A stretch of DNA of 64,000 nt from positions 258,477 through 322,476 of the forward strand of contig JACOXI010000003.1 in the NCBI GenBank assembly GCA_016176335.1, given 5' to 3'. The stretch comes from Candidatus Daviesbacteria bacterium. Its GTDB lineage: Bacteria; Patescibacteriota; Microgenomatia; Daviesbacterales; UBA10151. Positions 124 to 58,905 of the stretch are shown piece after piece. The first letter of the stretch is position 1. Each line of letters starts with the position of its first letter. Position numbers and translations under genes: made by a program. The notes under the pieces are model-generated. The model searched no databases. It worked only from the letters and a program-made list of their open reading frames with translations, and was not told where the DNA came from.

Positions 124-554
124 AATTACACGAACTGAATAAAGTGACAACAAAACCAAGAAAACGTATCGGGCGGGGGCTTGGATCGGGTAAGGGTAAA
201 ACCGGCGGCCGAGGAAGCAAAGGGCAAAAGGCAAGAGGAAAAATCCCGGTAGGATTTACAGGCAGTCTTCCTTTATATAGAAAATTGCCTTTAAGGCGCG
301 GAAAAGGTAATCCCAAAATATCTAGGAAAGTTAAAGTTATTAGTATTTCTGCGCTAAATGTTTTTAAATCAAAAAGTGTTGTTGGTGTTGAGGAATTAAT
401 TAAAGAAAAGATTATAAGTCCAAAAGATGCAAAGAAAGGTGTAAAAATTTTAGGCAATGGTGAAATAAATACTGCTTTGACCGTCAAACTTCCGGTAACT
501 AATTCTGCCCAAAAAAAGATAGAAAGTAAGGGCGGAAAGGTGAACAATGTCTGA
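120..554 (+). CDS. rplO: 50S ribosomal protein L15
   Basis: N-terminus [33 protein letters not shown] is the L15 signature. It sits in the conserved S5-L15-SecY context. Confidence 0.9.
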
Positions 555-3572: not shown

Positions 3573-3977
3573 ATGGCAAGAATTGCAGGAGTTGATTTAC
3601 CGGAAAATAAAAGAGTGGATATAGGACTTACCTATCTTTATGGGATAGGTCGTTCCAATGTGAGATTGGTTTTAAATGAAACGCGGGTTGATCCTAAAAA
3701 GAAAATTTTGGATTTAACAGAGGGTGAAATTAACAAGATTCAAAAGGCTTTAGAGCAGTTTACAGTGGAGGGAGATTTGCATCAGGAAGTTAACCAAAAT
3801 ATTAAAAGATTGGAAGAGATTGGAAGTTATAGAGGATTGCGACACAGGAAGAATTTGCCAGTGAGAGGACAAAGAACAAGATCTAATGCAAGGACAAAAA
3901 GAGGTAAAAGAAAGACCATTGGCGCAATGAAAAAAATTGATCGAGCAAAGGTGGAAGGACCAAAGACAGATGCCTAA
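3573..3977 (+). CDS. rpsM: 30S ribosomal protein S13
   Basis: MARIAGVDLPENKRVDIGLTYLYGIGRS… is canonical S13. Confidence 0.9.
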   Translation: MARIAGVDLPENKRVDIGLTYLYGIGRSNVRLVLNETRVDPKKKILDLTEGEINKIQKALEQFTVEGDLHQEVNQNIKRLEEIGSYRGLRHRKNLPVRGQRTRSNARTKRGKRKTIGAMKKIDRAKVEGPKTDA

Positions 3978-4362
3978 GAAAATCAAAAAAATTAAAAAAC
4001 AAAAAATAGAGAGAAAGTATAGTAGCGGTAGAGTGTATGTGACAGCTACATTTAACAACACCATAGTTACTTTAACTGATAGTTTGGGAAATACCCTAGC
4101 TTGGGGGACATCCGGCGGAGCTGGATTTAAGGGTGCAAGAAAAGCAACCCCATATGCTGCAATTTCCGCAATGGAAGCGGTTGCTCAAAAAGGCAAAGGT
4201 ATGGGTATATCTTCTGTTGAACTGTATATCAAAGGACCAGGTCCAGGGAGAGATGCCACGATCAAAGCTATCAGAGGTGCCGGGATTAACATCACTATGA
4301 TTGCCGATGTAACACCTATTCCGCACAACGGCCCCAGAGCAAAAAAAAGGAGGAGGGTTTAA
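3970..4362 (+). CDS. rpsK: 30S ribosomal protein S11
   Basis: …GRVYVTATFNNTIVTLTD..GN.LAWGTSG..GFKGARKATPYAA… is canonical S11. Start set at the internal MPKK to avoid overlapping rpsM. Confidence 0.9.
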   Translation: MPKKIKKIKKQKIERKYSSGRVYVTATFNNTIVTLTDSLGNTLAWGTSGGAGFKGARKATPYAAISAMEAVAQKGKGMGISSVELYIKGPGPGRDATIKAIRGAGINITMIADVTPIPHNGPRAKKRRRV

Positions 4363-5892: not shown

Positions 5893-6409
5893 TGTATATG
5901 GTAAAAAATTGGGAAGAAATAAAAACGAAAGAACTGCACTTTTTAAAAGTTTAGTGCGCAGTCTTTTTAGTTATGGAACTATTGAGACTTCCGAATCTAA
6001 AGCCAAGGCTGTAAAAGGGTTAGTTGATAAAATTATCAACCTGGCTAAAAACAAAAGCACCCAGCATTTATTGCAATCATATTTAGTAAACAGAGATTTA
6101 CAACAAAGATTAATTAAAGAAATTGCTCCAAAACTTTCTGATAGGATTTCCGGGTATACTACCATGTTGAGAATCGGTACAAGAGCAGGTGACAGATCAA
6201 CAATGGTAAGAGTGAGTCTGATACATAACGAGCAGTTAAAGCCAATAGAGAAAAAAGAATTAAGAATTAAGAATCGAGAATCAAGCGAAAAGATAGTAAG
6301 GACTGAAGTAAAAAAAACTGTTTCCGAGAAGAAAGGTAGAACTGGACAATCTGTTAGAAAAACTCACGTCACAAAGAAGAGGACTTCAAGATTGTCCAAA
6401 ACAAAATGA
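5882..6409 (+). CDS. rplQ: 50S ribosomal protein L17 with a Lys-rich C-terminal extension
   Basis: …RHNVYGKKLGRNKNERTALFKSLVRSLFSYGTIET…TTMLRIGTRAGD… matches L17. The start is probably GTG/TTG near 5876–5882. About 60 extra basic residues at the C-terminus. Confidence 0.8.
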   Translation: MRHNVYGKKLGRNKNERTALFKSLVRSLFSYGTIETSESKAKAVKGLVDKIINLAKNKSTQHLLQSYLVNRDLQQRLIKEIAPKLSDRISGYTTMLRIGTRAGDRSTMVRVSLIHNEQLKPIEKKELRIKNRESSEKIVRTEVKKTVSEKKGRTGQSVRKTHVTKKRTSRLSKTK

Positions 6410-8768: not shown

Positions 8769-8816
8769 CAATTAATTTTCCACTTGCCAAAATAGGTAAT
8801 TTGTGGTTTAATAATA

Positions 8817-8936
8817 ATGCATCAAGAGTGCCGCCTAAAAGGCGAGCCGGCAACCGAAAAGTTAACGGTGCCAAAGATGATGTGCCCTGCTACATAAGCG
8901 AGGAAAACTTAATCCTCTCTTATGAGAGGTTTTTTT
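8817..8936 (+). promoter_or_regulatory. SAM riboswitch (SAM-I/SAM-IV clan, SAM-IV-like core) with intrinsic terminator, 5' of metK
   Basis: …GCAUCAAGAGUGCCGCC-uaaaa-GGCGAGCCGGCAACC…CGGUGCCaaagAUGAUGUGC… matches the S-box/SAM-IV conserved strings (AUCAAGAG, GAGUGCC, CCGGCAACC, GGUGCC, P1 closing GAUGAUG). A terminator hairpin CCTCTCttatGAGAGG plus T7 follows at 8914–8936. It lies directly upstream of metK. Confidence 0.55.
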
Positions 8937-15770: not shown

Positions 15771-15843
15771 ATAAATTGATTATATCAAAGGTTTTCTGTA
15801 TTATTGTATGGATACGTGAATCAACTCAAAAGTCAAAACTCAA

Positions 15844-16128
15844 ATGTCAAAACCTAAGATTAACAAGGGTATTCAGATTCCAGATCAAATTTTACGAGAG
15901 TTGTTAACTGTCTCCGAATGGAGAATGTTAAAGAACCGCTTTCAAATAAAGAACCTTTTGGAAGAAGGATTATCCATAAGATCGGTGGCAAGTCAGGTTA
16001 GAGTTGGTACTGATACGGTAGTTAGGGTAGCCAGGATCATTGAAAAAAGTAACTTGAAAATTTTGAAAAAAGTAAAAAAACTGCCATTTAAAACTTCAAC
16101 CCCTTGGATTTTTGGGAAAAGTGAATAA
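15844..16128 (+). CDS. TrpR-like/YerC-YecD family DNA-binding protein
   Basis: …ELLT.SEWRMLKNRFQI…L.EGLS.R.VA..V.VGT.TV.RV is the TrpR/YerC helix-turn-helix signature. The N-terminus is encoded within a heptamer-repeat tract. Confidence 0.55.
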   Translation: MSKPKINKGIQIPDQILRELLTVSEWRMLKNRFQIKNLLEEGLSIRSVASQVRVGTDTVVRVARIIEKSNLKILKKVKKLPFKTSTPWIFGKSE

Positions 16129-18473: not shown

Positions 18474-19535
18474 ATGAAAAAAATTTTAGTGATTTTGGGT
18501 CCAACTGCAACAAGAAAAACTGACTTGGCTTTATATTTGGCCAAAAAACTTAATGGAGAGTTGGTGGCTTGTGATTCTAGACAAGTATATAAGGGATTAG
18601 ATATTGGCACTGGAAAGTTACCAGCCCCAATGTCAAATCTCAAATGTCCCGTCAAAGACGAGGCTCGCTCGCCTCGCAGCGAAGCAGCGGGCCTCTGGCG
18701 GCAAATGTCAAATGTAGAAAAAAAGAATGGATATTGGAAGATTGATGGGATAAAAATACATATGTATGATGTTGTTTCTCTAAAGATTCAGTTTACTGTG
18801 GCAGATTATGTTAAAGATGCAAATAGGGTAATTAATGATATTGAGAAAAGAGGGAAATTGCCAATTATAGTGGGTGGGACAGGATTGTATGCTAAAGCAT
18901 TAATTGAGGGATTGTCTTCTCTTGAAACACCCGTAAATAAAAAATTAAGGCAGAAATTAAACTTTTTATCTTTAAAACAACTGCAAAAAAAACTGCAAAA
19001 AATTGCATCGGAGAAATGGCAGTCTTTGAATCATTCCGATAAGAATAATCCAAGAAGATTAGTTCGGGCAATTGAGTTAGAAATTAATAAGGGAGATACG
19101 GGAAATCGGGGCAATTGGGGAAATCAGAGATTAGCAAGAGAATTTGATATTTTAAAAATTGGATTAAATGCGTCTAGAGATATATTGTATGAAAAAATTA
19201 ATAAAAGAGTTTATAAGTGGATTGAGGAGGGAATATTAGAAGAAGTTAAAAATTTAAGGAGTAAGGGGATAAGCAAAGATAGGTTTAAAGAATTGGGACT
19301 AGAGTATTCGGTTGCTTTGGAATATTTGGATAAAAAAATTACGCTTGAGGAAATGGTAAATAAGATGCAAACTAAAGTCAGGCAATATGCAAAGAGGCAA
19401 ATTACCTGGTTTAAGAGGGATAAAAATATTTTTTGGTTTGATATATCGGATAAAGATTATCTAATAAAAGTAGAAAACTTCATCACTAAATGGTATCATC
19501 AGTTAAAGATAACAAAATATGCCGCAAAAAATTGA
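18474..19535 (+). CDS. miaA: tRNA dimethylallyltransferase MiaA carrying an in-frame GC-rich palindromic insertion
   Basis: P-loop GPTATRKT, DSRQVYKGLDIGTGK, then about 35 extra residues (…PAPMSNLKCPVKDEARSPRSEAAGLWRQMSNVEKK…) before the conserved …HMYDVV…/…QFTVADYVKDA… block. The rest matches the MiaA family. Confidence 0.85.
   Translation: MKKILVILGPTATRKTDLALYLAKKLNGELVACDSRQVYKGLDIGTGKLPAPMSNLKCPVKDEARSPRSEAAGLWRQMSNVEKKNGYWKIDGIKIHMYDVVSLKIQFTVADYVKDANRVINDIEKRGKLPIIVGGTGLYAKALIEGLSSLETPVNKKLRQKLNFLSLKQLQKKLQKIASEKWQSLNHSDKNNPRRLVRAIELEINKGDTGNRGNWGNQRLAREFDILKIGLNASRDILYEKINKRVYKWIEEGILEEVKNLRSKGISKDRFKELGLEYSVALEYLDKKITLEEMVNKMQTKVRQYAKRQITWFKRDKNIFWFDISDKDYLIKVENFITKWYHQLKITKYAAKN
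18648..18701. repeat. GC-rich palindromic mini-element (copy 1) inserted in-frame in miaA, flanked by direct heptamer repeats
   Basis: CCGTCAAAGACGAGGCTCGCTCGCCTCGCAGCGAAGCAGCGGGCCTCTGGCGG is about 70% GC in an AT-rich gene. It is flanked by AATGTCAAATCTCAAATGT on the left and CAAATGTCAAATGTAG on the right. It shares the GGCTCGCCTCGC / CGTCAAAGACG / GCGAAGC.GCGGGC words with the copies at 22902–22962 and 37600–37629. Confidence 0.6.
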
Positions 19536-22750: not shown

Positions 22751-23176
22751 TCAGAATATATTAATATTCAAAACATTATTTTTCATTAGAAAATAAAGGA
22801 TGATTTGTAAACCCAATGCAGTACCTGCAAAGATAGAAATCTTCAGCAGATCTTGACGAAGGTAGGTGGTGTCATCGATAGTGACTTCCACTTTTGTGGT
22901 AGACGGCTCGCCTCGCTGTCGCCCTTGGCGAACCTCGTCAAAGACGGGCGAAGCGGGCAGACTGTAGATGTTAGACTGATCATTCCTGCCATAGAATTGC
23001 TGGCGAAGGATCTTGAGGCGTTTTTCCAAATCTGACTGATGTTTGCTCTGGTGTAGGGCCATGTTAGGTTCAGCTACGCACACTTGAGCCTTAGAGAACA
23101 TACAATTGAGTTCTCGCAGGATCAAATCGATTAGATTTGAGCCTATCACGCACAGTGTACGCTTGTCAAGCACCAA
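22751..23176 (-). CDS. hypothetical C-terminally membrane-anchored protein containing GC-rich element copy 2 (coding status uncertain)
   Basis: 141-codon ORF with a TTG/GTG start and C-terminal hydrophobic helix ISIFAGTALGLQIILYFLM. It carries the in-frame GC-rich repeat at 22902–22962. No recognisable family. Confidence 0.3.
   Translation of the reverse strand: MVLDKRTLCVIGSNLIDLILRELNCMFSKAQVCVAEPNMALHQSKHQSDLEKRLKILRQQFYGRNDQSNIYSLPASPVFDEVRQGRQRGEPSTTKVEVTIDDTTYLRQDLLKISIFAGTALGLQIILYFLMKNNVLNINIF
22902..22962. repeat. GC-rich palindromic mini-element (copy 2, permuted relative to the miaA copy)
   Basis: GACGGCTCGCCTCGCTGTCGCCCTTGGCGAACCTCGTCAAAGACGGGCGAAGCGGGCAGAC. It shares GGCTCGCCTCGC, CGTCAAAGACG and GCGAAGCGGGC with the copy at 18648–18701, in a different order. 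Confidence 0.5.
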
Positions 23177-36768: not shown

Positions 36769-38151
36769 ATGCAAGCATATATGGATCGCACATTAATTTT
36801 GGATTGTAAAGAGAAGGTTGGAAAAGAGGTGAAAATTTGTGGATGGGTTGTAACTGGCCGAGATCACGGAAAGCTCGTTTTTCTGGATGTCTTAGACAGA
36901 AGTGGAGTTATTCAAGTATTAGCATCTGGGGCTGACAAAAATGTTCCAGAGCTAAGACCCCAGGATGTAGTTTGTGTTACAGGAACTGTCAATAAAAGAC
37001 CACAAAATCTGGTTAATAAAAATATCCCTACGGGTGAAATAGAAATTTCAGCAGAAACTATTGAGGTTTTATCAAAAGCTCAAGAATTGCCTTTTGATAT
37101 GGGAGGTAAAGATTTGGATTTGCAGTTGCCAACTCTTTTAGATTTCCGATCCTTAACTTTACGTCACCCTAAGCTTAAGTCTATTTTCAAAGTTCAGGCA
37201 AGTCTGCTTGAGGGATTTAGGCAAGCAGCTTTAGATTTAGACTGTACAGAGATTGTAGTACCAACAATTGTGGCAGGAGCAACAGAAGGAGGGGCAGAAG
37301 TTTTTAAGATAGATTATTTCGGCCGTAAAGCCTACCTTTCCCAAAGTCCCCAGCTTTACAAACAAATGTTAGTGCCTGTATATGAGCGGGTCTTTACTAT
37401 TGCTAAGGCTTACCGTGCCGAACCCTCGGTTACCACCAGACATTTAACCGAAAGCACACAACTGGATATTGAAATTGGTTTTATAGAATTTGAAGACTTG
37501 CTGGATTTCCTGGAGGCAGTGGCGGTTAAAATGTTAACTGTTGCGGAGGAACAGTGCGGAGATATTTTATCTGAATTTGGTGTTGAAAAAATTGCTTTTG
37601 GCTCGCCTCGCTCCGCGGGCGGAGCGGGCAAAATTCCCAGACTGACCTTAAGAGAAGCTCAAGAAATAATCTTTAAAGAGTTTGGCAGAGATAATAGGAA
37701 TGAGAAAGATTTGACCCCGCAAGATGAGATAGATTTGTGTCAATGGTCGAAAGATAAACATCAATCGGATTTTGTCACCATCACTCATTTTCCAACTTCG
37801 GCAAAGCCATTTTACACCATGCCTAATCCAAAAAATCCAGAGTATAGTTTAAGTTATGACCTTCTTTTTAGAGGGGTAGAAATTTTAAGTGGTAGTCAGC
37901 GTATTAATGATTATCAGCAATTGCTCGATAGCATAAAAGGTCGGGGTATGAATCCTGATAATTTTCAGTTGTATCTTCAGGCTTTCCAGTATGGTATGCC
38001 CCCGGAGGGAGGATTTTCCTTCGGACTTGAGAGGGTTACGATGCATGTTCTAAATTTATCAAATATTAGGCAAGCCAGTCTTTTTCCAAGGGATATGGAA
38101 AGAGTTGATATCAGATTATCTCAAAACTCAAATCGCAAATCTCAAAACTAA
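36769..38151 (+). CDS. aspS: aspartyl-tRNA synthetase (archaeal/bacterial short type) with an in-frame 30-nt GC palindrome insertion
   Basis: OB-fold N-domain and class II motifs (FRAE…, …GGFSFGLERV…). A 10-aa GSPRSAGGAG insert is encoded by element copy 3. Confidence 0.9.
   Translation: MQAYMDRTLILDCKEKVGKEVKICGWVVTGRDHGKLVFLDVLDRSGVIQVLASGADKNVPELRPQDVVCVTGTVNKRPQNLVNKNIPTGEIEISAETIEVLSKAQELPFDMGGKDLDLQLPTLLDFRSLTLRHPKLKSIFKVQASLLEGFRQAALDLDCTEIVVPTIVAGATEGGAEVFKIDYFGRKAYLSQSPQLYKQMLVPVYERVFTIAKAYRAEPSVTTRHLTESTQLDIEIGFIEFEDLLDFLEAVAVKMLTVAEEQCGDILSEFGVEKIAFGSPRSAGGAGKIPRLTLREAQEIIFKEFGRDNRNEKDLTPQDEIDLCQWSKDKHQSDFVTITHFPTSAKPFYTMPNPKNPEYSLSYDLLFRGVEILSGSQRINDYQQLLDSIKGRGMNPDNFQLYLQAFQYGMPPEGGFSFGLERVTMHVLNLSNIRQASLFPRDMERVDIRLSQNSNRKSQN
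37600..37629. repeat. GC-rich palindromic mini-element (copy 3) in-frame in aspS
   Basis: GGCTCGCCTCGCTCCGCGGGCGGAGCGGGC has a near-perfect palindromic centre GCTCCGCGGGCGGAGC. It shares GGCTCGCCTCGC…GCGGGC with copies 1 and 2 and is flanked by AAAATT on both sides. Confidence 0.55.
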
Positions 38152-38280
38152 AACTTTAAATCTTAAAACTTTTTAAAGATTTTACCTTTAAGATGTAGAT
38201 TTGACCCATTCGGCTTCGTTCAGGGTCATCCTGAGCATTGTCGAAGGATGACATCTAAGATATAAGATTTGAGATTGTTA
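38119..38280. repeat. composite element: heptamer tandem-repeat arrays in inverted orientation flanking a GC-rich palindromic core (38203–38255)
   Basis: Left: TCTCAAA ACTCAAA TCGCAAA TCTCAAA ACTAAAA CTTTAAA TCTTAAA, encoding the aspS C-terminus …SQNSNRKSQN*. Core: GACCCATTCGGCTTCGTTCAGGGTCATCCTGAGCATTGTCGAAGGATGACATC. Right: CTAAGATATAAGATTTGAGATTG, the reverse complement of CAATCTCAAATCTTATATCTTAG. Confidence 0.5.
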
Positions 38281-39204
38281 ATAATGAAATATTATTTTTA
38301 TTCTGCTGGTTTAATTATACTGGCTATTATTTTTGCAACTACTTTACCAATTCTTACCGAGCAAAGTGAAAACACCCTACTTAGTCTACAAATTCCACAG
38401 AATAACTCCGCAGTTGCCGGTATTCAAAAGTACAATATCCCCCCTGTTAGCAAAAATATCCTCCCTCCGGAAATTTCCGCCCGATCTGTTTTAGTGAAAG
38501 ATCTGGGAACAGGAACTATCCTTTATCAAAAGGATGCAAATCTGCCGGTACCTATCGCATCAACCACTAAGATTGCAACAGCCTTGGTTGCCAGCGAATA
38601 TTTTAATCCCAACTCAATTTTAACAGTAAATCTGGGAGCAGAAATAAGCGGTGCAAAAGTAGGTCTTTTAAAGGGGGAAAACTTAAGTTTTAGGTCTCTT
38701 CTTTACGGGATGTTACTTAATTCCGGAAATGATGCGGCTTTCGCAATTGCGGAAAACTACCCCGGCGGAGTATTAGGTTTTGTTTCGGCAATGAACAAAA
38801 AATCAAATGAATTAGGGTTGAAAAGCACACATTTTGAAAATCCTGCCGGGTTTGATGGTCCCAATCATTTCTCATCTGCCTTGGATCTTTCTAAACTGAC
38901 AGAGGAGGCTTTGAAAAATTACCAGTTGGCAAGGATTTTTGCCACCAAAGACACCAGTATTGTATCCTTGGATAAAAAATATGAGCACCAACTCCATAAT
39001 TTAAATAAGCTTTTGGCTGATGTTAAGGGAGTGCTTGGTGTCAAAACCGGTTATACGCAAGCAGCAAAAGAAAATTTAGTCACTTTGGTTGATAGGGATG
39101 GTCACAAAATACTGGTTGTTGTTTTGGGTAGTGATGATAGGTTTGGGGAATCAACTAATTTGATTGAGTGGACTTATGATAACTTCATATGGCCCCAATT
39201 TTAA
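38269..39204 (+). CDS. D-alanyl-D-alanine carboxypeptidase (peptidase S11, PBP5-like)
   Basis: SxxK ASTTKIAT, SxN LNSGNDAA and KTG motif VKTGYT. N-terminal signal/TM. Confidence 0.8.
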   Translation: MRLLIMKYYFYSAGLIILAIIFATTLPILTEQSENTLLSLQIPQNNSAVAGIQKYNIPPVSKNILPPEISARSVLVKDLGTGTILYQKDANLPVPIASTTKIATALVASEYFNPNSILTVNLGAEISGAKVGLLKGENLSFRSLLYGMLLNSGNDAAFAIAENYPGGVLGFVSAMNKKSNELGLKSTHFENPAGFDGPNHFSSALDLSKLTEEALKNYQLARIFATKDTSIVSLDKKYEHQLHNLNKLLADVKGVLGVKTGYTQAAKENLVTLVDRDGHKILVVVLGSDDRFGESTNLIEWTYDNFIWPQF

Positions 39205-40301: not shown

Positions 40302-41627
40302 ATGAACGTGAGAGTCAGGATTGCCCCATCCCCAACAGGATCACCACATATCGGGACTGTTTGGCAAGCCCTTTTTGATTTTGTTTTTGCCAAAAAAAAA
40401 CATGGCAAATTTATTTTGCGGATTGAAGATACAGACAGGGCAAGATATGTTGCCGAAAGCGAACAGGAAATTGTCGAAACATTTAAATGGTTAGGTTTTG
40501 AGTTTGATGAAGGTCCCAATATTGGGGGGGATTTTGGTCCGTATAGACAATCGGAAAGGCTTGAGATATACGAAAAGTTTGCCAGGGAGTTGGTGAAAAA
40601 GGGTACGGCTTTTGCAGATGAAGGAGCAGTCAGATTTAAGACAAAAAAGACAGGAGTAACCTCTTGGCACGATTTGGTGGGAAGTAAGCTGATAACTTTT
40701 GAAAATTCCACACAGGATGATTTTGTGATTTTAAAATCAGACGGATATCCCACATATAACTTTGCCAATGTTGTGGATGACCATTTAATGGAGATAACCC
40801 ATGTGATCAGAGGGAATGAATTTATCTCATCTACCCCAAAGCATTTGATGATATATGAATCCTTTGGTTGGCAGCCTCCTCAATTTGCCCATCTGCCGGT
40901 TTTGGTTGGGGCCGATCGGAGTAAATTATCTAAAAGACACGGGGCAAAATCCGCACTGGAGTTTAAAAAAGAAGGATACTTGAAAGAGGCGATCCTAAAT
41001 TTTCTGGCTCTTTTAGGGTGGACACACCCGGAAGGCAGGGAAATTTTCACTATAGATGAGATGATAGGTCTTTTTAATTTTAAAGATTTTAACTTGGCAT
41101 CGGCTTTTTTTGATACTACAAAGCTTGACTGGTTGAATGGGGAATATATTAGGAAATCTCAAAACTCAAAACTCAAAAGTCAAATTTTGGAATATTTAAA
41201 AGATATCTCAGGTGGGGCAATCGAGCATCCCACAGAGCAGGAAGTTGAGAAAGTAATACCGCTTATTAAAGAGCGGATTAAGAAATTATCAGATTTTATT
41301 CCTCTGACAGATTTTCTTTGGGAAAAGGCTGAATATGATTTACAAATATTTCAAAAATTAAATATTAAAGATCAAAAAGAAATTCTAACCAAAATTATAG
41401 AAGAGCTGAAAAACATGGAAAGACCTTGGAAGGCAGATATTTTTGAGGCAACCTTTAGGAAACTGGCAGAGGATTTGGGATTATCAGCTGCACAAGTTTT
41501 TCAACTAATCAGAGTGGCAGTGTCAGGCCAATTAGTTACTCCGCCTCTTTTTGAAAGCATCCAGATATTGGGAGAAAATGAGACTGTCAAAAGAGTTAAT
41601 GAAGTTGCAAACATTATAGGTTCGTGA
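40302..41627 (+). CDS. gltX: glutamyl-tRNA synthetase
   Basis: MNVRVRIAPSPTGSPHIGTVWQALFD (HIGH motif) and KLSKR (KMSKS motif). Contains an in-frame heptamer-repeat tract at 41157–41186 encoding …RKSQNSKLKSQI…. Confidence 0.9.
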   Translation: MNVRVRIAPSPTGSPHIGTVWQALFDFVFAKKKHGKFILRIEDTDRARYVAESEQEIVETFKWLGFEFDEGPNIGGDFGPYRQSERLEIYEKFARELVKKGTAFADEGAVRFKTKKTGVTSWHDLVGSKLITFENSTQDDFVILKSDGYPTYNFANVVDDHLMEITHVIRGNEFISSTPKHLMIYESFGWQPPQFAHLPVLVGADRSKLSKRHGAKSALEFKKEGYLKEAILNFLALLGWTHPEGREIFTIDEMIGLFNFKDFNLASAFFDTTKLDWLNGEYIRKSQNSKLKSQILEYLKDISGGAIEHPTEQEVEKVIPLIKERIKKLSDFIPLTDFLWEKAEYDLQIFQKLNIKDQKEILTKIIEELKNMERPWKADIFEATFRKLAEDLGLSAAQVFQLIRVAVSGQLVTPPLFESIQILGENETVKRVNEVANIIGS

Positions 41628-48847: not shown

Positions 48848-49075
48848 AAAAAATCCCCTTTCGGGGATACAATAAACACCAATTGGTGTATTTTTCTTTC
48901 TTTCATCCCGACTGTACCCTTCGATACTTCGACTTCGCTCAGTACTCAGGGTTCTTCACTTTGTGAAGAACGGTCGGCTTTGGACTTTCACCAAATCATC
49001 CATATACCGTTTCTGGTATGTGGTCGTGGGCTATACCACCGATTTTGACTTACACAAAACCCCGAAAGAACAGCT
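48848..49075 (-). promoter_or_regulatory. FMN riboswitch (RFN element) with terminator/SD-sequestering expression platform, 5' of the rib operon
   Basis: The minus strand reads …UCUUUCGGGGuuuuGUG.AA.UC…AUCGGUGGUauAGCCCaCGAcc…GGAUgauuugGUGAAAGUCCAAAGCCGACCGU…AAAGU…GAAGGGUACAGUCGGGAUGAAAGAAAG. This matches RFN conserved blocks (CGGGG, ACCGG.GGU, AGCCCGCGA, AAGCCGACAGU.AAAGU, GGAUG.AAGA). It is followed by AUCCCCgaaaGGGGAU plus U6 directly abutting the ribE ATG; the 3' half-stem GGGGA is the likely SD. Confidence 0.7.
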
Positions 49076-53938: not shown

Positions 53939-54436
53939 ATGAATGACAAAAAAATTATTATTGGCTTTGTAGTCTTAACGCTCTTAATACTGGGAGGTGG
54001 AGTTTATATTTTAAGTGTTACCACTGCTAATCCTGCTGTGGTTAATCTTGCCCAAAATGCCAAAGTGTCTGTTGATCAAAAAACTCATGATTGGGGAAAT
54101 ATCCCTTATAGCGGAGGTAATGTCAGCAAAACTTTTACTATTAAAAATACAGGAACTGATTCCTTAAAGCTGACTAACATAAAAACTTCATGTGCTTGTA
54201 CTTATGCTCAAGTAATCATCGATGGGAAGACAAGTCCTAATTTTGGTATGCACACCACTTCTTCCTGGGTGGGAGAGGTGGCTCTAGGTAAAGAAGCCAA
54301 CTTAACGGTCGTTTTTGATCCGGCTTTCCATGGTCCGTCAGGTGTGGGAGCTATTGAACGGTTGGTGTCGGTTGAAACAAATGATATTCAAAATCCTAAA
54401 TTAGAATTTTCCTTAAAAGGGGTAGTAGTGAAATAA
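53939..54436 (+). CDS. DUF1573-domain protein (N-terminal TM + beta-sandwich)
   Basis: …HDWGNIPYSGGNVSKTFTIKNTGTDSLKLTNIKTSCACTYAQV… matches the DUF1573 pattern (DFG.I…F.F.N.G…L.I..V..SCGCT). Confidence 0.55.
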   Translation: MNDKKIIIGFVVLTLLILGGGVYILSVTTANPAVVNLAQNAKVSVDQKTHDWGNIPYSGGNVSKTFTIKNTGTDSLKLTNIKTSCACTYAQVIIDGKTSPNFGMHTTSSWVGEVALGKEANLTVVFDPAFHGPSGVGAIERLVSVETNDIQNPKLEFSLKGVVVK

Positions 54437-54449
54437 TTCAAAATTCAAA

Positions 54450-55397
54450 ATGCAAAATTCAAAATTACAATTAAAAATTCAAAAATTTTTATCTAAAGCA
54501 GTGCCGCTTTGGATGGTGCTTTTGATTGTTTTAAATTCCACCCTAATCATGGGTATTATCCAGTACTATTTGATGAAGCAGGAATTGGATAAAAATATCC
54601 GGCAGCTTGCAAAAACCACTCAAACTCCCCAGCAACTGGCGCAAATTTTAAAACAGGAGGTTGTGCCTCAAAAAGGTTATGTGACCTCTTTAAAATGGAA
54701 AGATTTAGGCAAAAGATTAGTGGAGACAGGGGCTATTGATAAGAAAAAATATGAGGAAATCTTTACTCAAAATGTGGATGGAGGGGATCATATGAAATAT
54801 ATGGATGGAAATTGGGAGGAGAATATTGCTATTAACGAGCAAAATGCCCGTTTTATGGTTAATACTTTTTGGGCTTTGGGGTTGGTTAATAAGAGTAAGG
54901 TTTTAGATGAAGGGCCAATGAGGGGAGAGGGTATTGAAACCGGAAACATGGCTTCAACCGCAGGTTGGACTTTGGGTAGTAAACCTGCCATGGAGCTTTA
55001 TTCTTCAAGTCCAACAATTCCTTTAACTGCCGAGCAGCAAGAACTGGTTAAAAAGATTGCCCAAAATGTTTTTCGTCCTTGCTGCGGTAACTCAACTTAT
55101 TTTCCGGACTGCAACCATGGTATGGCTGCCTTAGGATATATTGAGTGGGCAATCTATAATGGATTATCTGAAGACCAAATTTATAAAGATCTTTTAGCCT
55201 TTAATTCTTTCTGGTTTCCGCAAAATTATGTAGAGATGGCAGTTTATTTTGATAAGCAAAATATCAAATGGAAAGATTTAGACCCAAAATTGGCACTCTC
55301 TGCCTCTTATTCTTCGGCGCAAGGTGTGCAGCGTATAAAACAAGCCATACAATCTGTTCCCGGGGTTTCCGGAAGCGGCGGAGGTTGTGGTGTATAA
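54450..55397 (+). CDS. Cys-rich 'CCxNS…DCNHG' family protein, paralog A (metal island)
   Basis: N-terminal TM, then …LTAEQQELVKKIAQNVFRPCCGNSTYFPDCNHGMAALG…AFNSFWFPQNY…GSGGGCGV*. Clear paralog of the C-terminal 300 aa of ORF 59878–61326 (FRPCCNNSTFFQDCNHG…AFNSFWFPQNY…GGAGCGV*). The 5' end is encoded by a heptamer-repeat tract. Confidence 0.5.
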   Translation: MQNSKLQLKIQKFLSKAVPLWMVLLIVLNSTLIMGIIQYYLMKQELDKNIRQLAKTTQTPQQLAQILKQEVVPQKGYVTSLKWKDLGKRLVETGAIDKKKYEEIFTQNVDGGDHMKYMDGNWEENIAINEQNARFMVNTFWALGLVNKSKVLDEGPMRGEGIETGNMASTAGWTLGSKPAMELYSSSPTIPLTAEQQELVKKIAQNVFRPCCGNSTYFPDCNHGMAALGYIEWAIYNGLSEDQIYKDLLAFNSFWFPQNYVEMAVYFDKQNIKWKDLDPKLALSASYSSAQGVQRIKQAIQSVPGVSGSGGGCGV

Positions 55398-56674: not shown

Positions 56675-58905
56675 TTGAAAAAAATATGTATATTTGTCCA
56701 ATGCATCCTGATGTTATATCCGAAAGAGCAGGTAAATGTCCCAAGTGTGGTGGCATGGATTTAGTGGAGAAGAAAGAGGAACATGGTATAAGTCACGATA
56801 TGCACGAAGTTGATCAGCCCCAAAGAGCCGGTATGTATTACAGCTGTCCTATGGATCCGGAGGTGATTTCCAAAAAGCCTGGTAATTGTCCCAAATGCGG
56901 CATGGAGCTTATGCCAATAACAAAAGAACATGGGGGTTTGGATCATGCAAATATGGAAGAGGGTTTCAAGCGAAGATTTTTTGTCACCTTACCTCTGGTA
57001 TTTATTATTGTAGTGCTTGCCCCAAAGATTCAGGAATGGTTCAGGTTTAGCCTCACATTCCCGGGAATGGAAATTGTGACCTTTGCCTTAACCTCGGTAA
57101 TAGTTTTCTACTCTGGTTTGCCTTTTTATCAGATGGCCCTTGGTGAAATTAAAGCCAAAAAGTACGGCATGATGACTTTGGTTTCATTGGCTGTTTTATC
57201 AGGGTATTTTTTCTCTGTTGCCGCAACTTTCCTTTTTCCGGGAGAAAATCTTTACTGGGAAATTGCCACATTGGTTTTGGCATTTTTGCTGGGTCACTGG
57301 ATAGAAATGAGAGCTGTTCGGGGCGCAACAGGGGCACTGGCTGAATTGGCCAGACTTATTCCTCCCACGGCCCATAAGATAGTGATAAGTGGCAAGAGAA
57401 AAGTAATTAGTGATGTGGGAACAGGACAATTAAAAAAGGGCGATCTGATTCTGGTTCGTCCAGGAGAAAAAATGCCCATTGATGGGGTGGTTTGGGAAGG
57501 AGAATCTGCTGTAAATGAGTCAATGGTGACAGGAGAGTCTGTTCCTGTAGAAAAGAAAAAAGGGTCAGAAGTGATAGGCGGGACGATCAACAGTGACGGT
57601 TCTCTGACAGTTAAGGTCACAAAAACCGGGGAGGAAACAGCCATCTCCCAGATGATGGAGCTGATTCGGCAGGCACAAGAGAGTAAACCTGATGTACAAA
57701 AAATGGCTGATCAAGCAGCCAGCTGGTTAACATTTACTGCCCTGACAGTAGGTATAGGCACCTTTTTGTTTTGGTTTTTTGGATCAAACCAGGGGGCTAT
57801 TTTTGCCGGAACTTTGGCGATTTCCGTAATTGTTATTGCCTGTCCTCATGCTCTGGGTCTGGCTATCCCGACTGTCACCACTATCACTACGGCTTTGGCT
57901 GCCAAAAACGGAATTTTAATCAAAGACATGAGGGCTTTGGAGATTGCCAGAAAACTTAACTGGGTGGTTTTGGATAAAACAGGAACGTTAACAGAGGGGA
58001 AATTTGGAGTGTCTGATGTGGCAACATTTGGGAAAATATCGTCTGTGGAGATTATTAACTTGGCAACTGCTTTGGAGTTTCATTCTCAACATCCGATTGC
58101 CCAGGGTATTGTGGAGGAGGCCAAAAAAAGGAGAATGAATATACAACCTGCCAAAAATTTTAAATCTATTCCCGGCAAAGGAGCAGAAGGTTTGGTAGAT
58201 GGAAAAAAAGTGGTAGTGGGGAATCAGGCACTGATGGAAGATTTAAGAATTAAGAATATAGAATCAAGAATTAAGGGATTTAAACAGGAAGGGAAAACTT
58301 TTATTTTTGTGGCCATAAATAACAGATTAGTTGGGGCAATTGGGCTGGAAGATGTCATAAGGCCACAGTCAAAAGAAGCAATAGATGCTTTTAGGGAAAT
58401 GGGCATTAAAACAGCCATGCTGACCGGTGATCATGAAACTGTTGCAAAAATGGTGGCTGAAAGATTGGGTATAGATACTTTTTTTGCCCAGGTTCTACCC
58501 GGGGATAAGGTTAGCAAAATCAAGCAGTTGCAAGAAGGGGGCAATGTGGTGGCGATGGTGGGGGATGGGATTAATGATGCGGCCTCTTTAACCCAGGCTC
58601 ATATTGGTATTGCCATTGGGGCAGGCACGGGAGTGGCCATTGAGTCTGCAGAAATAGTGCTGATGAAAAATGACCCCAGGGATGTAGTTAAAGCTATAAA
58701 ACTTTCTCAAAAAACCAACATTAAGATGGTGCAAAATCTTGCTTGGGCAGCAGGTTACAATATCATTACCATCCCCATGGCAGCCGGTATTTTTTATAAC
58801 CTGGGAATTCTGCTGCGCCCTGAATGGGCAGCGCTTTTGATGAGTGCCTCATCTGTGATCGTGGTTTTCAATGCCTTGCTTTTAAAAAAGGAACGTCTTG
58901 ACTGA
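56662..58905 (+). CDS. copB: P1B-type heavy-metal-translocating ATPase, CPH subtype (CopB-like) with two N-terminal Cys4 metal-binding mini-domains
   Basis: Two repeats YICPMHPDVISERAGKCPKCGGMDL / YYSCPMDPEVISKKPGNCPKCGMEL. TM6 motif CPH (…IACPHALGLAIP…), DKTGTLT, GDGINDAA, HP. 747 aa. Confidence 0.9.
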   Translation: MGKMIEKNMYICPMHPDVISERAGKCPKCGGMDLVEKKEEHGISHDMHEVDQPQRAGMYYSCPMDPEVISKKPGNCPKCGMELMPITKEHGGLDHANMEEGFKRRFFVTLPLVFIIVVLAPKIQEWFRFSLTFPGMEIVTFALTSVIVFYSGLPFYQMALGEIKAKKYGMMTLVSLAVLSGYFFSVAATFLFPGENLYWEIATLVLAFLLGHWIEMRAVRGATGALAELARLIPPTAHKIVISGKRKVISDVGTGQLKKGDLILVRPGEKMPIDGVVWEGESAVNESMVTGESVPVEKKKGSEVIGGTINSDGSLTVKVTKTGEETAISQMMELIRQAQESKPDVQKMADQAASWLTFTALTVGIGTFLFWFFGSNQGAIFAGTLAISVIVIACPHALGLAIPTVTTITTALAAKNGILIKDMRALEIARKLNWVVLDKTGTLTEGKFGVSDVATFGKISSVEIINLATALEFHSQHPIAQGIVEEAKKRRMNIQPAKNFKSIPGKGAEGLVDGKKVVVGNQALMEDLRIKNIESRIKGFKQEGKTFIFVAINNRLVGAIGLEDVIRPQSKEAIDAFREMGIKTAMLTGDHETVAKMVAERLGIDTFFAQVLPGDKVSKIKQLQEGGNVVAMVGDGINDAASLTQAHIGIAIGAGTGVAIESAEIVLMKNDPRDVVKAIKLSQKTNIKMVQNLAWAAGYNIITIPMAAGIFYNLGILLRPEWAALLMSASSVIVVFNALLLKKERLD

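What the first reader, a model, noticed from the sequence alone, without database searches (positions are those of the whole stretch)
41157..41186. Dispersed heptanucleotide tandem repeat (consensus AAnTCAA / TCAAAAn) occurring in-frame in essential genes and at gene 5' ends
Period-7 tracts occur at several loci:
- 15821–15858 (AACTCAA AAGTCAA AACTCAA ATGTCAA AACC, spanning the start of the TrpR-like gene);
- 18629–18647 and 18702–18716 (flanking the miaA GC element);
- 38119–38178 (aspS 3' end, …SQNSNRKSQN*);
- 41157–41186 (ATCTCAA AACTCAA AACTCAA AAGTCAA, giving …RKSQNSKLKSQI… inside GluRS);
- 54434–54486 (AATTCAA ×5, spanning the start of Cys-rich paralog A).
A 7-nt period cannot be codon-driven, yet the tracts preserve the reading frame. 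They co-localise with the GC-rich palindromic elements, looking like their terminal arrays or target sites. Such tracts could also mediate slipped-strand variation.
Basis: seen in the sequence. Interest (0 to 1): 0.6.

Follow-up and report, generated by a model that had tools for sequence, protein, structure and literature searches.

The report
Seven-base repeat arrays inside CPR genes
This Candidatus Daviesbacteria genome carries many short tandem arrays of a 7-base unit, written in frame into essential genes and across gene boundaries; they evolve as DNA repeats, not as protein motifs, and resemble the unexplained 7-base 'STRR' repeats of filamentous cyanobacteria.

Summary
Period 7 is the only enriched repeat period: 6 tracts against 0.15 in dinucleotide shuffles, and 4 in-ORF tracts against 0.13 to 0.43 in codon shuffles.

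The window is Candidatus Daviesbacteria (CPR). There are two unit families, AAnTCAA and AAGAATT.

At orthologous sites in GluRS, the aspS 3' end, the ATPase and MiaA, period 7 persists down to 59% protein identity. The unit sequence and the encoded peptide change (KSQNSKLKSQ versus KLPITNFQFQ). AAGAATT arrays carry a point 'patch' exactly where an in-frame TAA would fall.

In near-identical Gribaldobacteria strains an AlaRS array differs by exactly 3 units (21 nt), or by a change of unit.

In miaA the 54-nt GC element sits inside an array. A relative has that array uninterrupted with the same five units. The array is therefore the insertion site, not a terminal array or a target duplication.

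Best reading: these are STRR-like DNA repeats kept alive by slippage or conversion and filtered by selection for open reading frames. Why the period is 7 remains unknown.

I found no description of this in CPR. I rate it a new variant of a known kind.

The parts
41154..41184 (+). Heptamer array AAATCTC AAAACTC AAAACTC AAAAGTC AAA inside gltX (GluRS). It encodes K287-I297 (KSQNSKLKSQI), between the catalytic and anticodon-binding Pfam domains.
   Evidence: Orthologues keep period 7 with other units. The segment aligns without a gap to RIDLEDLKREF of T. maritima GluRS, chain 3akz_B.
41353..41378 (+). Weaker second period-7 tract in gltX (AAAAATT-like).
   Evidence: TRF. Orthologous positions in L001 (GATTAAA) and L002 (AAGTTAA) are also period 7.
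15823..15853 (+). Array AACTCAA AAGTCAA AACTCAA ATGTCAA AA, spanning the 5' leader and the ATG of the TrpR-like gene (15844-16128).
   Evidence: It is 25/27 identical to the GluRS array.
18629..18648 (+). Left part of the miaA array (AATGTCA AATCTCA AATGTC).
18649..18702 (+). 54-nt GC-rich hairpin element (18 codons) inserted inside unit 3 of the miaA array.
   Evidence: The empty-site allele is in L330.
18703..18717 (+). Right part of the miaA array (A AATGTCA AATGTAG).
38118..38170 (+). Array at the 3' end of aspS. It encodes the C-terminal tail SQNSNRKSQN*, runs past the stop codon, and forms the left arm of a composite hairpin.
   Evidence: Arrays with other units lie at the same site in L001 (AAGTAAA) and L082 (TTCAAAT).
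38222..38252 (+). Hairpin core GGGTCATCCTGAGCATTGTCGAAGGATGAC between the arrays downstream of aspS.
   Evidence: Direct reading and fold.
38256..38276 (-). Inverted heptamer tract (AATCTCAAATCTTATATCTTA on the minus strand). It pairs with the aspS array in the predicted fold.
   Evidence: The fold of 38112-38285 gives -43.7 kcal/mol, z = -4.9.
54435..54484 (+). Array (AATTCAA x about 7) spanning the 13-nt intergenic gap and the first codons (MQNSKLQLKIQKF) of the Cys-rich membrane protein gene.
6255..6285 (+). AAGAATT-family array in the C-terminal extension of rplQ (L17), peptide ELRIKNRES. The in-frame TAA position reads CGA.
58238..58275 (+). AAGAATT-family array in the P-type ATPase, peptide DLRIKNIESRIK. 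The in-frame TAA position reads ATA.
   Evidence: Orthologues L328 and L329 keep the array with different patches.

Best explanation
The tracts are short arrays (3-7 units) of heptanucleotide tandem repeats. They are a CPR counterpart of the 7-bp STRR arrays of filamentous cyanobacteria, and they exist and evolve at the DNA level.

Shown:
- They occupy a limited set of mutation-tolerant sites. These are inter-domain or surface segments, protein termini and gene boundaries.
- At such a site the 7-nt period persists over deep divergence, while the unit sequence and the encoded peptide turn over in concert.
- Near-identical strains differ by whole arrays or by exactly 3 units (21 nt, 7 codons).
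- Units that would give an in-frame stop carry a point 'patch' at exactly that junction.
- Small GC-rich hairpin elements insert into arrays without duplicating a unit.

Inferred:
- Arrays renew and homogenise themselves by replication slippage or misaligned templated repair, and by conversion between arrays of the same family at different loci.
- Purifying selection on the host gene lets through only frame-preserving, stop-free versions of tolerable length.
- No benefit to the cell is needed for their persistence. In intergenic DNA, inverted arrays build long hairpins that may have been co-opted as terminators or transcript stabilisers.

Not explained: what sets the period at 7 and what seeds new arrays. 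The same question is open for cyanobacterial STRRs.
For: Period-7-only excess, not explained by codons or by the protein sequence.

GluRS site: the window, L084, L001, L002 and L003 all carry AAAnnTC-type arrays. L003 is only 59% identical in protein yet has a perfect (AAATCTC)x4.5. L082 has AATTACC AATTACC AATTTCC AATTTCA, giving KLPITNFQFQI at the same 10 codons.

The aspS 3' end carries CTCAAAA, AAGTAAA or TTCAAAT arrays in three genomes.

ATPase site: the AAGAATT array is kept in L328 and L329. The obligatory in-frame TAA is replaced by ATA, TAT or a CAA-type change, and by CGA in L17.

The MiaA loop carries three different unit families in four genomes.

Gribaldobacteria AlaRS, with flanks >99.4% identical, has three alleles: 4.7 units, 1.7 units (minus 21 nt), and a different unit AAAGCGC.

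Within the window, units are more alike than A-rich random 7-mers (13 of 36 pairs within 1 mismatch, against 3.8; P about 0.0025). The L17 and ATPase arrays share 24 of 26 positions, including a non-required T>C variant.

The MiaA empty-site comparison shows a 54-nt insertion into a 5-unit array with no added unit.

Tract density, with the GluRS gene excluded, is 62-100 per Mb in CPR loci against 12.7 per Mb in 1.26 Mb of non-CPR loci.

Contigs found through one array carry many other period-7 arrays with unrelated units: 300 at period 7 against 99 for six other periods together.
Against: - Nothing here explains the number 7. Slippage alone should not favour one period.
- Persistence of arrays at the same sites down to 59% protein identity, and recurrence of GTCAAAA-type arrays in several CPR phyla, could instead reflect selection for a DNA- or RNA-level function.
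- In GluRS and the ATPase the array replaces an equally long ordinary segment rather than adding length. Simple expansion does not predict this.
- The change of all units at once in the AlaRS population (3 of 7 positions, with flanks about 0.5% diverged) is too fast for point mutation plus slippage. It needs conversion from elsewhere or recombination with an older allele, and neither was shown.
- Only 64 kb of this genome was available.
Confidence: 0.55

Rival explanations
1. The arrays are selected cis-elements. They would be binding sites for a nucleoid, regulatory or RNA-binding factor that reads a 7-nt (21 bp = two helical turns) periodicity, or arms of functional hairpins such as terminators or mRNA stabilisers. 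Coding sequences would have been moulded around them.
For: - Period 7 is kept at orthologous sites over deep divergence.
- Inverted arrays downstream of aspS fold far better than shuffles: z = -4.9 in the window and z = -2.9 in L082.
- In cyanobacteria, 7-bp STRR hairpins have been suggested to affect transcript stability or translational coupling (PMC2670836).
- Similar units recur in distant CPR phyla.
Against: - Unit sequence is not conserved at a site: three families occupy the MiaA loop. About 100 different canonical units are seen among 130 arrays.
- Close strains carry or lack an array, or differ in the array's unit: GluRS A/B alleles at 95-100% flank identity and the AlaRS alleles.
- Host genes are unrelated in function.
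- No Rfam family overlaps any tract.
Confidence: 0.2
2. The arrays are by-products of the GC-rich hairpin mobile elements. They would be terminal arrays, 7-bp target-site duplications, or excision footprints that later expand.
For: - The miaA GC element is flanked by AAATGTC on both sides.
- L332 has a ~30-nt GC hairpin inside an AAATTCG array.
- A hairpin core lies between inverted arrays downstream of aspS.
- GC elements are actively mobile in a CPR population (90-nt and 46-nt presence/absence).
- From memory, not checked here: Elhai et al. 2008 reported small dispersed repeats nested in heptamer arrays in Nostoc.
Against: - L330 has the same five units uninterrupted, so the insertion added 54 nt and no unit. 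There is therefore no 7-bp duplication.
- Element lengths of 54 and 90 nt are exact multiples of 3. Adding 7 nt would break the frame.
- Two of the three GGCTCGCCTCGC copies in the window have no clear array.
- Most arrays have no element.
Confidence: 0.1
3. The arrays are contingency loci. Slipped-strand gain or loss of single units would switch genes ON and OFF, as in NeuO of E. coli K1 or the hmw promoters of H. influenzae.
For: - Array copy number does vary between near-identical strains.
- Two arrays overlap start codons of non-essential genes, the TrpR-like gene and the Cys-rich membrane protein gene.
- Heptanucleotide SSRs do this elsewhere (PMC13001214, PMC2651432).
Against: - Most hosts are single-copy housekeeping genes: GluRS, AspRS, L17 and MiaA here, and LigA and AlaRS in other CPR.
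- Arrays are short, 3-5 units.
- Only frame-preserving variants were seen.
- No frameshifted allele was found.
Confidence: 0.07
4. Chance, low-complexity A-rich sequence, or codon and peptide repeats.
For: The genome is A-rich on the coding strand. Some weak tracts, such as 217-243 in L15 and 3979-4007, are probably just Lys/Gly-rich coding sequence.
Against: Dinucleotide, codon-order and synonymous-codon shuffles all fall far short of the observed count. Period 7 is conserved while the peptides change.
Confidence: 0.01

Closest known systems
STRR (short tandemly repeated repetitive) sequences of filamentous or heterocystous cyanobacteria (Mazel et al. 1990, from memory; described in PMC2670836)
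   Same: - 7-bp units in short tandem arrays.
- Many arrays per genome, with several unit families.
- Frequent inverted pairs that form hairpins between genes.
- Function and origin unknown.
- A Trichodesmium/Okeania contig found by my pattern scan shows the same picture (L164).
   Different: - The host is a CPR bacterium.
- Units are A-rich (AAnTCAA, AAGAATT), not CCCCAGT, TTGGTCA or CAACAGT.
- Most arrays here lie in frame inside protein-coding genes, including essential ones, because the genome has almost no intergenic space.
NeuO heptanucleotide VNTR of E. coli K1 (5'-AAGACTC-3' in the 5' coding region; PMC13001214)
   Same: A 7-nt unit inside an ORF. Three units make 7 codons. The protein is full-length only when the copy number keeps the frame. 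The unit differs from AAAACTC by one base.
   Different: NeuO has 3-53 units, varies by single units, and works as an ON/OFF switch of one accessory phage gene. Here the arrays have 3-7 units, lie at many loci in housekeeping genes, and showed only in-frame variants.
Heptanucleotide SSRs of Haemophilus influenzae (hmw1A/hmw2A promoters and the TonB-dependent receptor; PMC2651432)
   Same: 7-nt tandem repeats that change in number by slippage.
   Different: There are few loci, with long tracts, in promoters or surface-protein genes, and a documented role in phase variation.
Small dispersed repeats (SDR) nested in tandem heptamer repeats of Nostoc punctiforme (Elhai et al. 2008, Genome Res 18:1484; recalled from memory. 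The paper is not held in the library)
   Same: Very small hairpin-forming mobile elements are found inserted inside heptamer arrays. This matches the 54-nt element in the miaA array and the ~30-nt element in L332.
   Different: The organisms and element sequences differ. Here the insertions are in frame in proteins.
Rickettsia palindromic elements (RPE; Ogata et al. 2000, from memory)
   Same: Selfish repeats tolerated in frame within essential protein-coding genes at structurally permissive sites.
   Different: RPEs are 100-150-bp palindromic elements, not 7-nt tandem arrays. They resemble the GC elements here more than the heptamer tracts.

Membership tests
STRR-type heptanucleotide arrays | Tandem arrays with a 7-nt unit | tested here: met
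   TRF and my own period scan: 6 tracts against 0.15 expected, and no comparable excess at any other period except 14, which is twice 7.
STRR-type heptanucleotide arrays | Many dispersed arrays per genome belonging to several unit families | tested here: met
   About 10 arrays in 64 kb and two main families. Related CPR contigs carry 4-11 arrays per 6-10 kb. Only 64 kb of this genome was seen.
STRR-type heptanucleotide arrays | Inverted pairs of arrays forming hairpins in intergenic DNA | tested here: met
   aspS downstream region in the window (z = -4.9) and in L082 (z = -2.9). Several inverted pairs also occur in scan hits L121, L128 and L153.
STRR-type heptanucleotide arrays | Predominantly non-coding location | tested here: not met
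   Most arrays in the window lie inside or across ORFs: GluRS, AspRS, L17, ATPase, MiaA and the Cys-rich protein.
STRR-type heptanucleotide arrays | Occurrence in filamentous or heterocystous cyanobacteria, with consensus units STRR1-3 | tested here: not met
   The window is Candidatus Daviesbacteria. Units are AAnTCAA and AAGAATT.
Phase-variable contingency SSR (NeuO / hmw type) | Copy number varies by single units between close strains, giving ON and OFF states | tested here: not met
   GluRS tract length is constant in 42 orthologues. AlaRS alleles differ by 21 nt or by in-frame replacement. The LigA array is invariant. No population data exist for this species itself.
Phase-variable contingency SSR (NeuO / hmw type) | Located in accessory, surface or host-interaction genes | tested here: not met
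   Hosts are mainly housekeeping genes. Two arrays overlap starts of non-essential genes.
Terminal arrays or target-site duplications of a mobile element | Insertion adds one repeat unit (TSD), and arrays flank every element copy | tested here: not met
   L330 carries 5 uninterrupted units. The window carries the same 5 units plus 54 nt. Two of three element copies lack arrays.
Codon or amino-acid repeat (protein-level low complexity) | Periodicity explained by the peptide and codon usage | tested here: not met
   The synonymous-codon shuffle gives 0.43 tracts against 4 observed. The peptide changes while the period is kept.

The most novel reading that the evidence does not exclude
CPR bacteria, filamentous cyanobacteria and some other lineages may share a dedicated machinery that generates and renews 7-nt tandem arrays regardless of their sequence. 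Its nature is unidentified; it could be a repair, replication or recombination activity with a 7-nt register. Such a machinery would turn permissive loops of essential proteins into fast-evolving cassettes and landing pads for hairpin elements that insert without target duplication. That would be a two-tier selfish-DNA system living inside housekeeping genes.
Probability: 0.2. Interest if true: 0.85.

Novelty: new variant of a known kind. Interest (0 to 1): 0.62.

Why it matters
- Heptanucleotide arrays have been known in cyanobacteria for decades without an explanation. Finding the same phenomenon at high density in ultra-small CPR genomes gives it a second, independent and much simpler setting. 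In these genomes it is forced into coding sequence and leaves readable marks of selection: stop-codon patches, steps of 3 units, and constant tract length.
- It identifies the fastest-evolving sites in otherwise conserved CPR proteins.
- It explains odd low-complexity peptides (SQNSKLK, LRIKN, KVKSQKS) in CPR aminoacyl-tRNA synthetases, ligase and ribosomal proteins.
- It shows where small GC-rich mobile elements land.
- It offers strain-typing markers.
- It warns that frameshift 'pseudogenes' and assembly breaks in CPR MAGs may arise at these arrays.

Tried and rejected
It returned only four Daviesbacteria-like loci among 80. The rest served as a non-CPR control.
- Literature searches for heptanucleotide repeats in CPR or Patescibacteria found nothing. 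Elhai et al. 2008 is not held in the library.
- Rfam found no family at any tract. It found only two tRNAs, an FMN riboswitch and a SAM-I/IV riboswitch.
- The simple terminator scan did not flag the array hairpins.
- I looked for a shared core, such as GTCA, among units of 130 + 131 arrays. The units are highly diverse, with only a general A-richness and a TCAA/TGAA bias.
- I tested whether the rest of the GluRS type-B block is dispersed in the window. Only the array part matches elsewhere.
- I checked whether the GluRS tract is an insertion. It is not: it aligns without a gap to ordinary GluRS.
- I considered a 7-bp target duplication as the origin of the arrays. The MiaA empty site rejects it.
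- The LigA and FtsH clusters showed no array polymorphism.
They cannot give frequencies.
Full report
WHAT IS THERE. The window comes from a Candidatus Daviesbacteria (CPR/Microgenomates) contig. Its GluRS is 100% identical to an NCBI protein on a 456,706-bp contig. Tandem Repeats Finder reports period-7 arrays at 15823-15853, 38118-38170, 41154-41184 and 54435-54484.

IS IT MORE THAN CHANCE. Yes.
- A scan of periods 4-15 finds 6 tracts at period 7, against 0.15 in dinucleotide-preserving shuffles. No other period shows a comparable excess except 14, which is twice 7.
- The motif TCAAAANTCAAAANTCAAA with up to 2 mismatches occurs 7 times at 4 loci, all on the + strand, against 0.16 expected.
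- Shuffling codon order within genes gives 0.13 in-ORF tracts, against 4 observed.
- Shuffling synonymous codons while keeping every protein sequence gives 0.43, with a maximum of 2.
The periodicity therefore belongs to the DNA, not to the peptides. Units at different loci are also more alike than expected. Thirteen of 36 pairs are within one mismatch, against 3.8 for A-rich random 7-mers (P about 0.0025). The L17 and ATPase arrays agree at 24 of 26 positions.

WHERE THE ARRAYS SIT. They lie in permissive places.
- In GluRS the array encodes residues 287-297, between the catalytic (to residue 279) and anticodon-binding (from residue 301) Pfam matches.
- It aligns without a gap to the ordinary segment RIDLEDLKREF of T. 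maritima GluRS. It replaces normal sequence rather than adding to it.
- In AspRS the array forms a short C-terminal tail and runs past the stop codon.
- In L17 it lies in the C-terminal extension.
- In the Cys-rich membrane protein it covers the 13-nt intergenic gap and the N-terminal tail.
- Upstream of the TrpR-like gene it covers the leader and the ATG.

THE KEY COMPARATIVE RESULT. At orthologous sites the period is conserved while the unit and the peptide are not.
- GluRS DNA from seven genomes: the window has AAATCTC AAAACTC AAAACTC AAAAGTC. L084 (87% protein identity) and L001 have close variants. L002 (60%) has AAAAGTC AAAATTC AAAACTC AAAACTC. L003 (59%) has a perfect (AAATCTC)x4.5. L082 has AATTACC AATTACC AATTTCC AATTTCA, which encodes KLPITNFQFQI in place of KSQNSKLKSQI. 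Tract length is constant at 10 codons across 42 orthologues.
- The aspS 3' end carries CTCAAAA, AAGTAAA or TTCAAAT arrays in three genomes.
- The ATPase site keeps an AAGAATT array in L328 and L329.
- The MiaA loop carries AATGTCA/AATCTCA (window, L330), AAGAATT (L331) or AAATTCG (L332).

MARKS OF SELECTION. A perfect (AAGAATT)n necessarily places TAA in every reading frame once per three units. At exactly that junction the L17 array reads CGA and the window's ATPase array reads ATA. L329 reads TAT, L328 has a CAA-type change, and L331 (MiaA) reads CAA. The repeat is therefore primary, and the open reading frame is rescued by different point changes in different lineages. Sense-strand orientation follows the same logic: the complement of TCAAAAN contains TGA.

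POPULATION-LEVEL DYNAMICS.
- A Gribaldobacteria AlaRS gene was found through the pattern scan. It exists in strains whose flanking 4.6 kb are >99.4% identical.
- One allele has (AAAGTCA)x4 + AAAGT. One lacks exactly three units (21 nt, 7 codons). A third has a different unit, AAAACGC AAAGCGC AAAGCGA AGT.
- The same strains also differ by presence or absence of a 90-nt GC-rich element in frame in a gene, and of a 46-nt hairpin element.
- In Daviesbacteria, L084 and L081 are 95-100% identical across gltX except for a block of about 130 nt. That block begins at the first base of the array. One strain has the array allele and the other an ordinary MSDERLTVAL allele 21 nt shorter. The two allele types are interleaved across a tree built from the rest of the protein.

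RELATION TO THE GC-RICH ELEMENTS. L330 has an uninterrupted miaA array: ATGTCAA ATCTCAA ATCTCAA ATGTCAA ATGTACA. The window has the same five units with exactly 54 nt (18 codons) inserted inside unit 3. No unit was added, so there is no 7-bp target duplication. The array is the landing site, not a terminal array of the element. L332 shows a ~30-nt GC hairpin inside an AAATTCG array. Protein alignments show the MiaA loop to be a hotspot for both arrays and REP-like hairpin insertions. Of the three GGCTCGCCTCGC elements in the window, only the miaA copy lies in a clear array. Downstream of aspS, a different hairpin core lies between inverted arrays. The whole region folds at -43.7 kcal/mol with z = -4.9. 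L082 has inverted arrays without a core, z = -2.9.

HOW WIDESPREAD.
- With the GluRS gene itself excluded, period-7 tracts occur at 62 per Mb in Daviesbacteria-like loci and 100 per Mb in four other CPR loci.
- In 1.26 Mb of non-CPR loci the figure is 12.7 per Mb, and there periods 6, 9 and 12 dominate.
- Contigs recovered by a TCAAANN x4 scan carry many further period-7 arrays with unrelated units: 300 at period 7 against 99 for six other periods together.
- Named examples are Paceibacterota, Woese/Roizmanbacteria, Gribaldobacteria and Azambacteria. Others are Trichodesmium/Okeania, Prevotellaceae, Capnocytophaga and Leyella.
- In CPR the arrays sit in frame in LigA, AlaRS and other genes, for example QVKSQKSKVKSN.
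- Units are very diverse overall. The period is the shared property, not the sequence.

MECHANISM. I commit to the following reading, with about 0.55 confidence. The arrays are STRR-like DNA repeats. They persist at permissive sites because slippage or misaligned templated repair, and conversion between arrays of the same family, keep renewing them. Selection on the host gene admits only in-frame, stop-free versions of tolerable length.
- Shown: non-codon periodicity, site persistence with unit turnover, 21-nt steps, stop patches, and element insertion without duplication.
- Inferred: slippage or conversion as the engine, and neutrality for the cell.
- Unknown: why the period is 7, and how an array comes to replace an equally long ordinary segment.
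Rivals are a selected cis-element (0.2), by-products of the GC elements (0.1), phase variation (0.07) and chance (0.01).

COMPARISON WITH WHAT IS KNOWN. The closest kind is the cyanobacterial STRR. These are 7-bp repeats that form hairpins, have no known function, and are suggested to affect transcript stability or translational coupling (PMC2670836). The window meets the defining features of unit length, dispersal, multiple families and hairpin pairs. It does not meet the taxonomic, consensus-unit or non-coding features. NeuO of E. coli K1 is the closest coding analogue: AAGACTC repeats, with full-length protein only when the copy number is divisible by 3 (PMC13001214). NeuO is, however, a long, single-locus ON/OFF switch. 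I found no description of heptanucleotide arrays in CPR in the searchable library, so I rate this a new variant of a known kind.

LIMITS.
- Only 64 kb of the source genome was available.
- The polymorphism evidence comes from another CPR phylum.
- Taxonomy of the metagenome contigs rests on names of clustered proteins.
- Statements about Mazel 1990, Elhai 2008 and Ogata 2000 are from memory.

Noticed in passing
window 41154-41275; L084 and L081: gltX exists as two sharply bounded alleles. Type B has the heptamer array plus KDISGGA. Type A has an ordinary MSDEELTKRL segment and is 21 nt shorter. Two strains that are 95-100% identical elsewhere differ only in this block of about 130 nt. The two types are interleaved across the Daviesbacteria GluRS tree, which suggests a recombining cassette or an old dimorphism.
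   Followed up: partly
window 18649-18702, 22895-22960, 37597-37634; L003 7448: GC-rich elements sharing GGCTCGCCTCGC...GCGGGC are inserted in frame in miaA, in a minus-strand ORF, and in aspS. The 30-nt aspS copy is identical in L003, whose GluRS is only 59% identical. That is unexpectedly high DNA conservation.
   Followed up: partly
L090 versus L324-L327 (Gribaldobacteria): Near-identical strains differ by a 90-nt GC-rich element present or absent in frame in a PF04308 (RNaseH_like) gene, and by a 46-nt hairpin element in an intergenic array-like region. This indicates currently mobile mini-elements without obvious target duplication.
   Followed up: no
MiaA homologues P0349-P0399, loop after DIGTGK: This loop is hypervariable in length (0 to about 40 residues). 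It carries translated REP-like palindromes (for example ILRFAQNDI, RHPELDSGS, VIPAK...GMT) in several Daviesbacteria. P0391 and P0397 carry a duplication of the DIGTGK motif.
   Followed up: no
L154, L103, L089; L029 17063-17306: Dense period-7 arrays also occur in Prevotellaceae, Capnocytophaga and Leyella contigs. A Clostridiales MAG carries a 244-nt ACTGACC/ACTAACC array. The period-7 preference is therefore not confined to CPR and cyanobacteria.
   Followed up: partly
Viral-contig loci L205-L323: IMG/VR contigs that match TCAAANN x4 contain 131 further period-7 arrays with other units. Phage or misclassified contigs therefore carry the same kind of repeat.
   Followed up: no
window 48891-49073 (-) and 8814-8920 (+): An FMN riboswitch lies upstream of the riboflavin genes. 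A SAM-I/IV riboswitch scores just above its gathering threshold (42.3 against 41.1 bits).
   Followed up: no
window 217-243 and 3975-4007: TRF also reports period-7-like tracts here (GCAAAAG; AAAATCAA). They lie in Gly/Lys-rich ribosomal-protein coding sequence and look protein-driven, so they probably do not belong to the array family.
   Followed up: partly
L329 21076-21555: A free-standing LAGLIDADG homing-endonuclease ORF lies in a Daviesbacteria-like contig near the ATPase locus.
   Followed up: no
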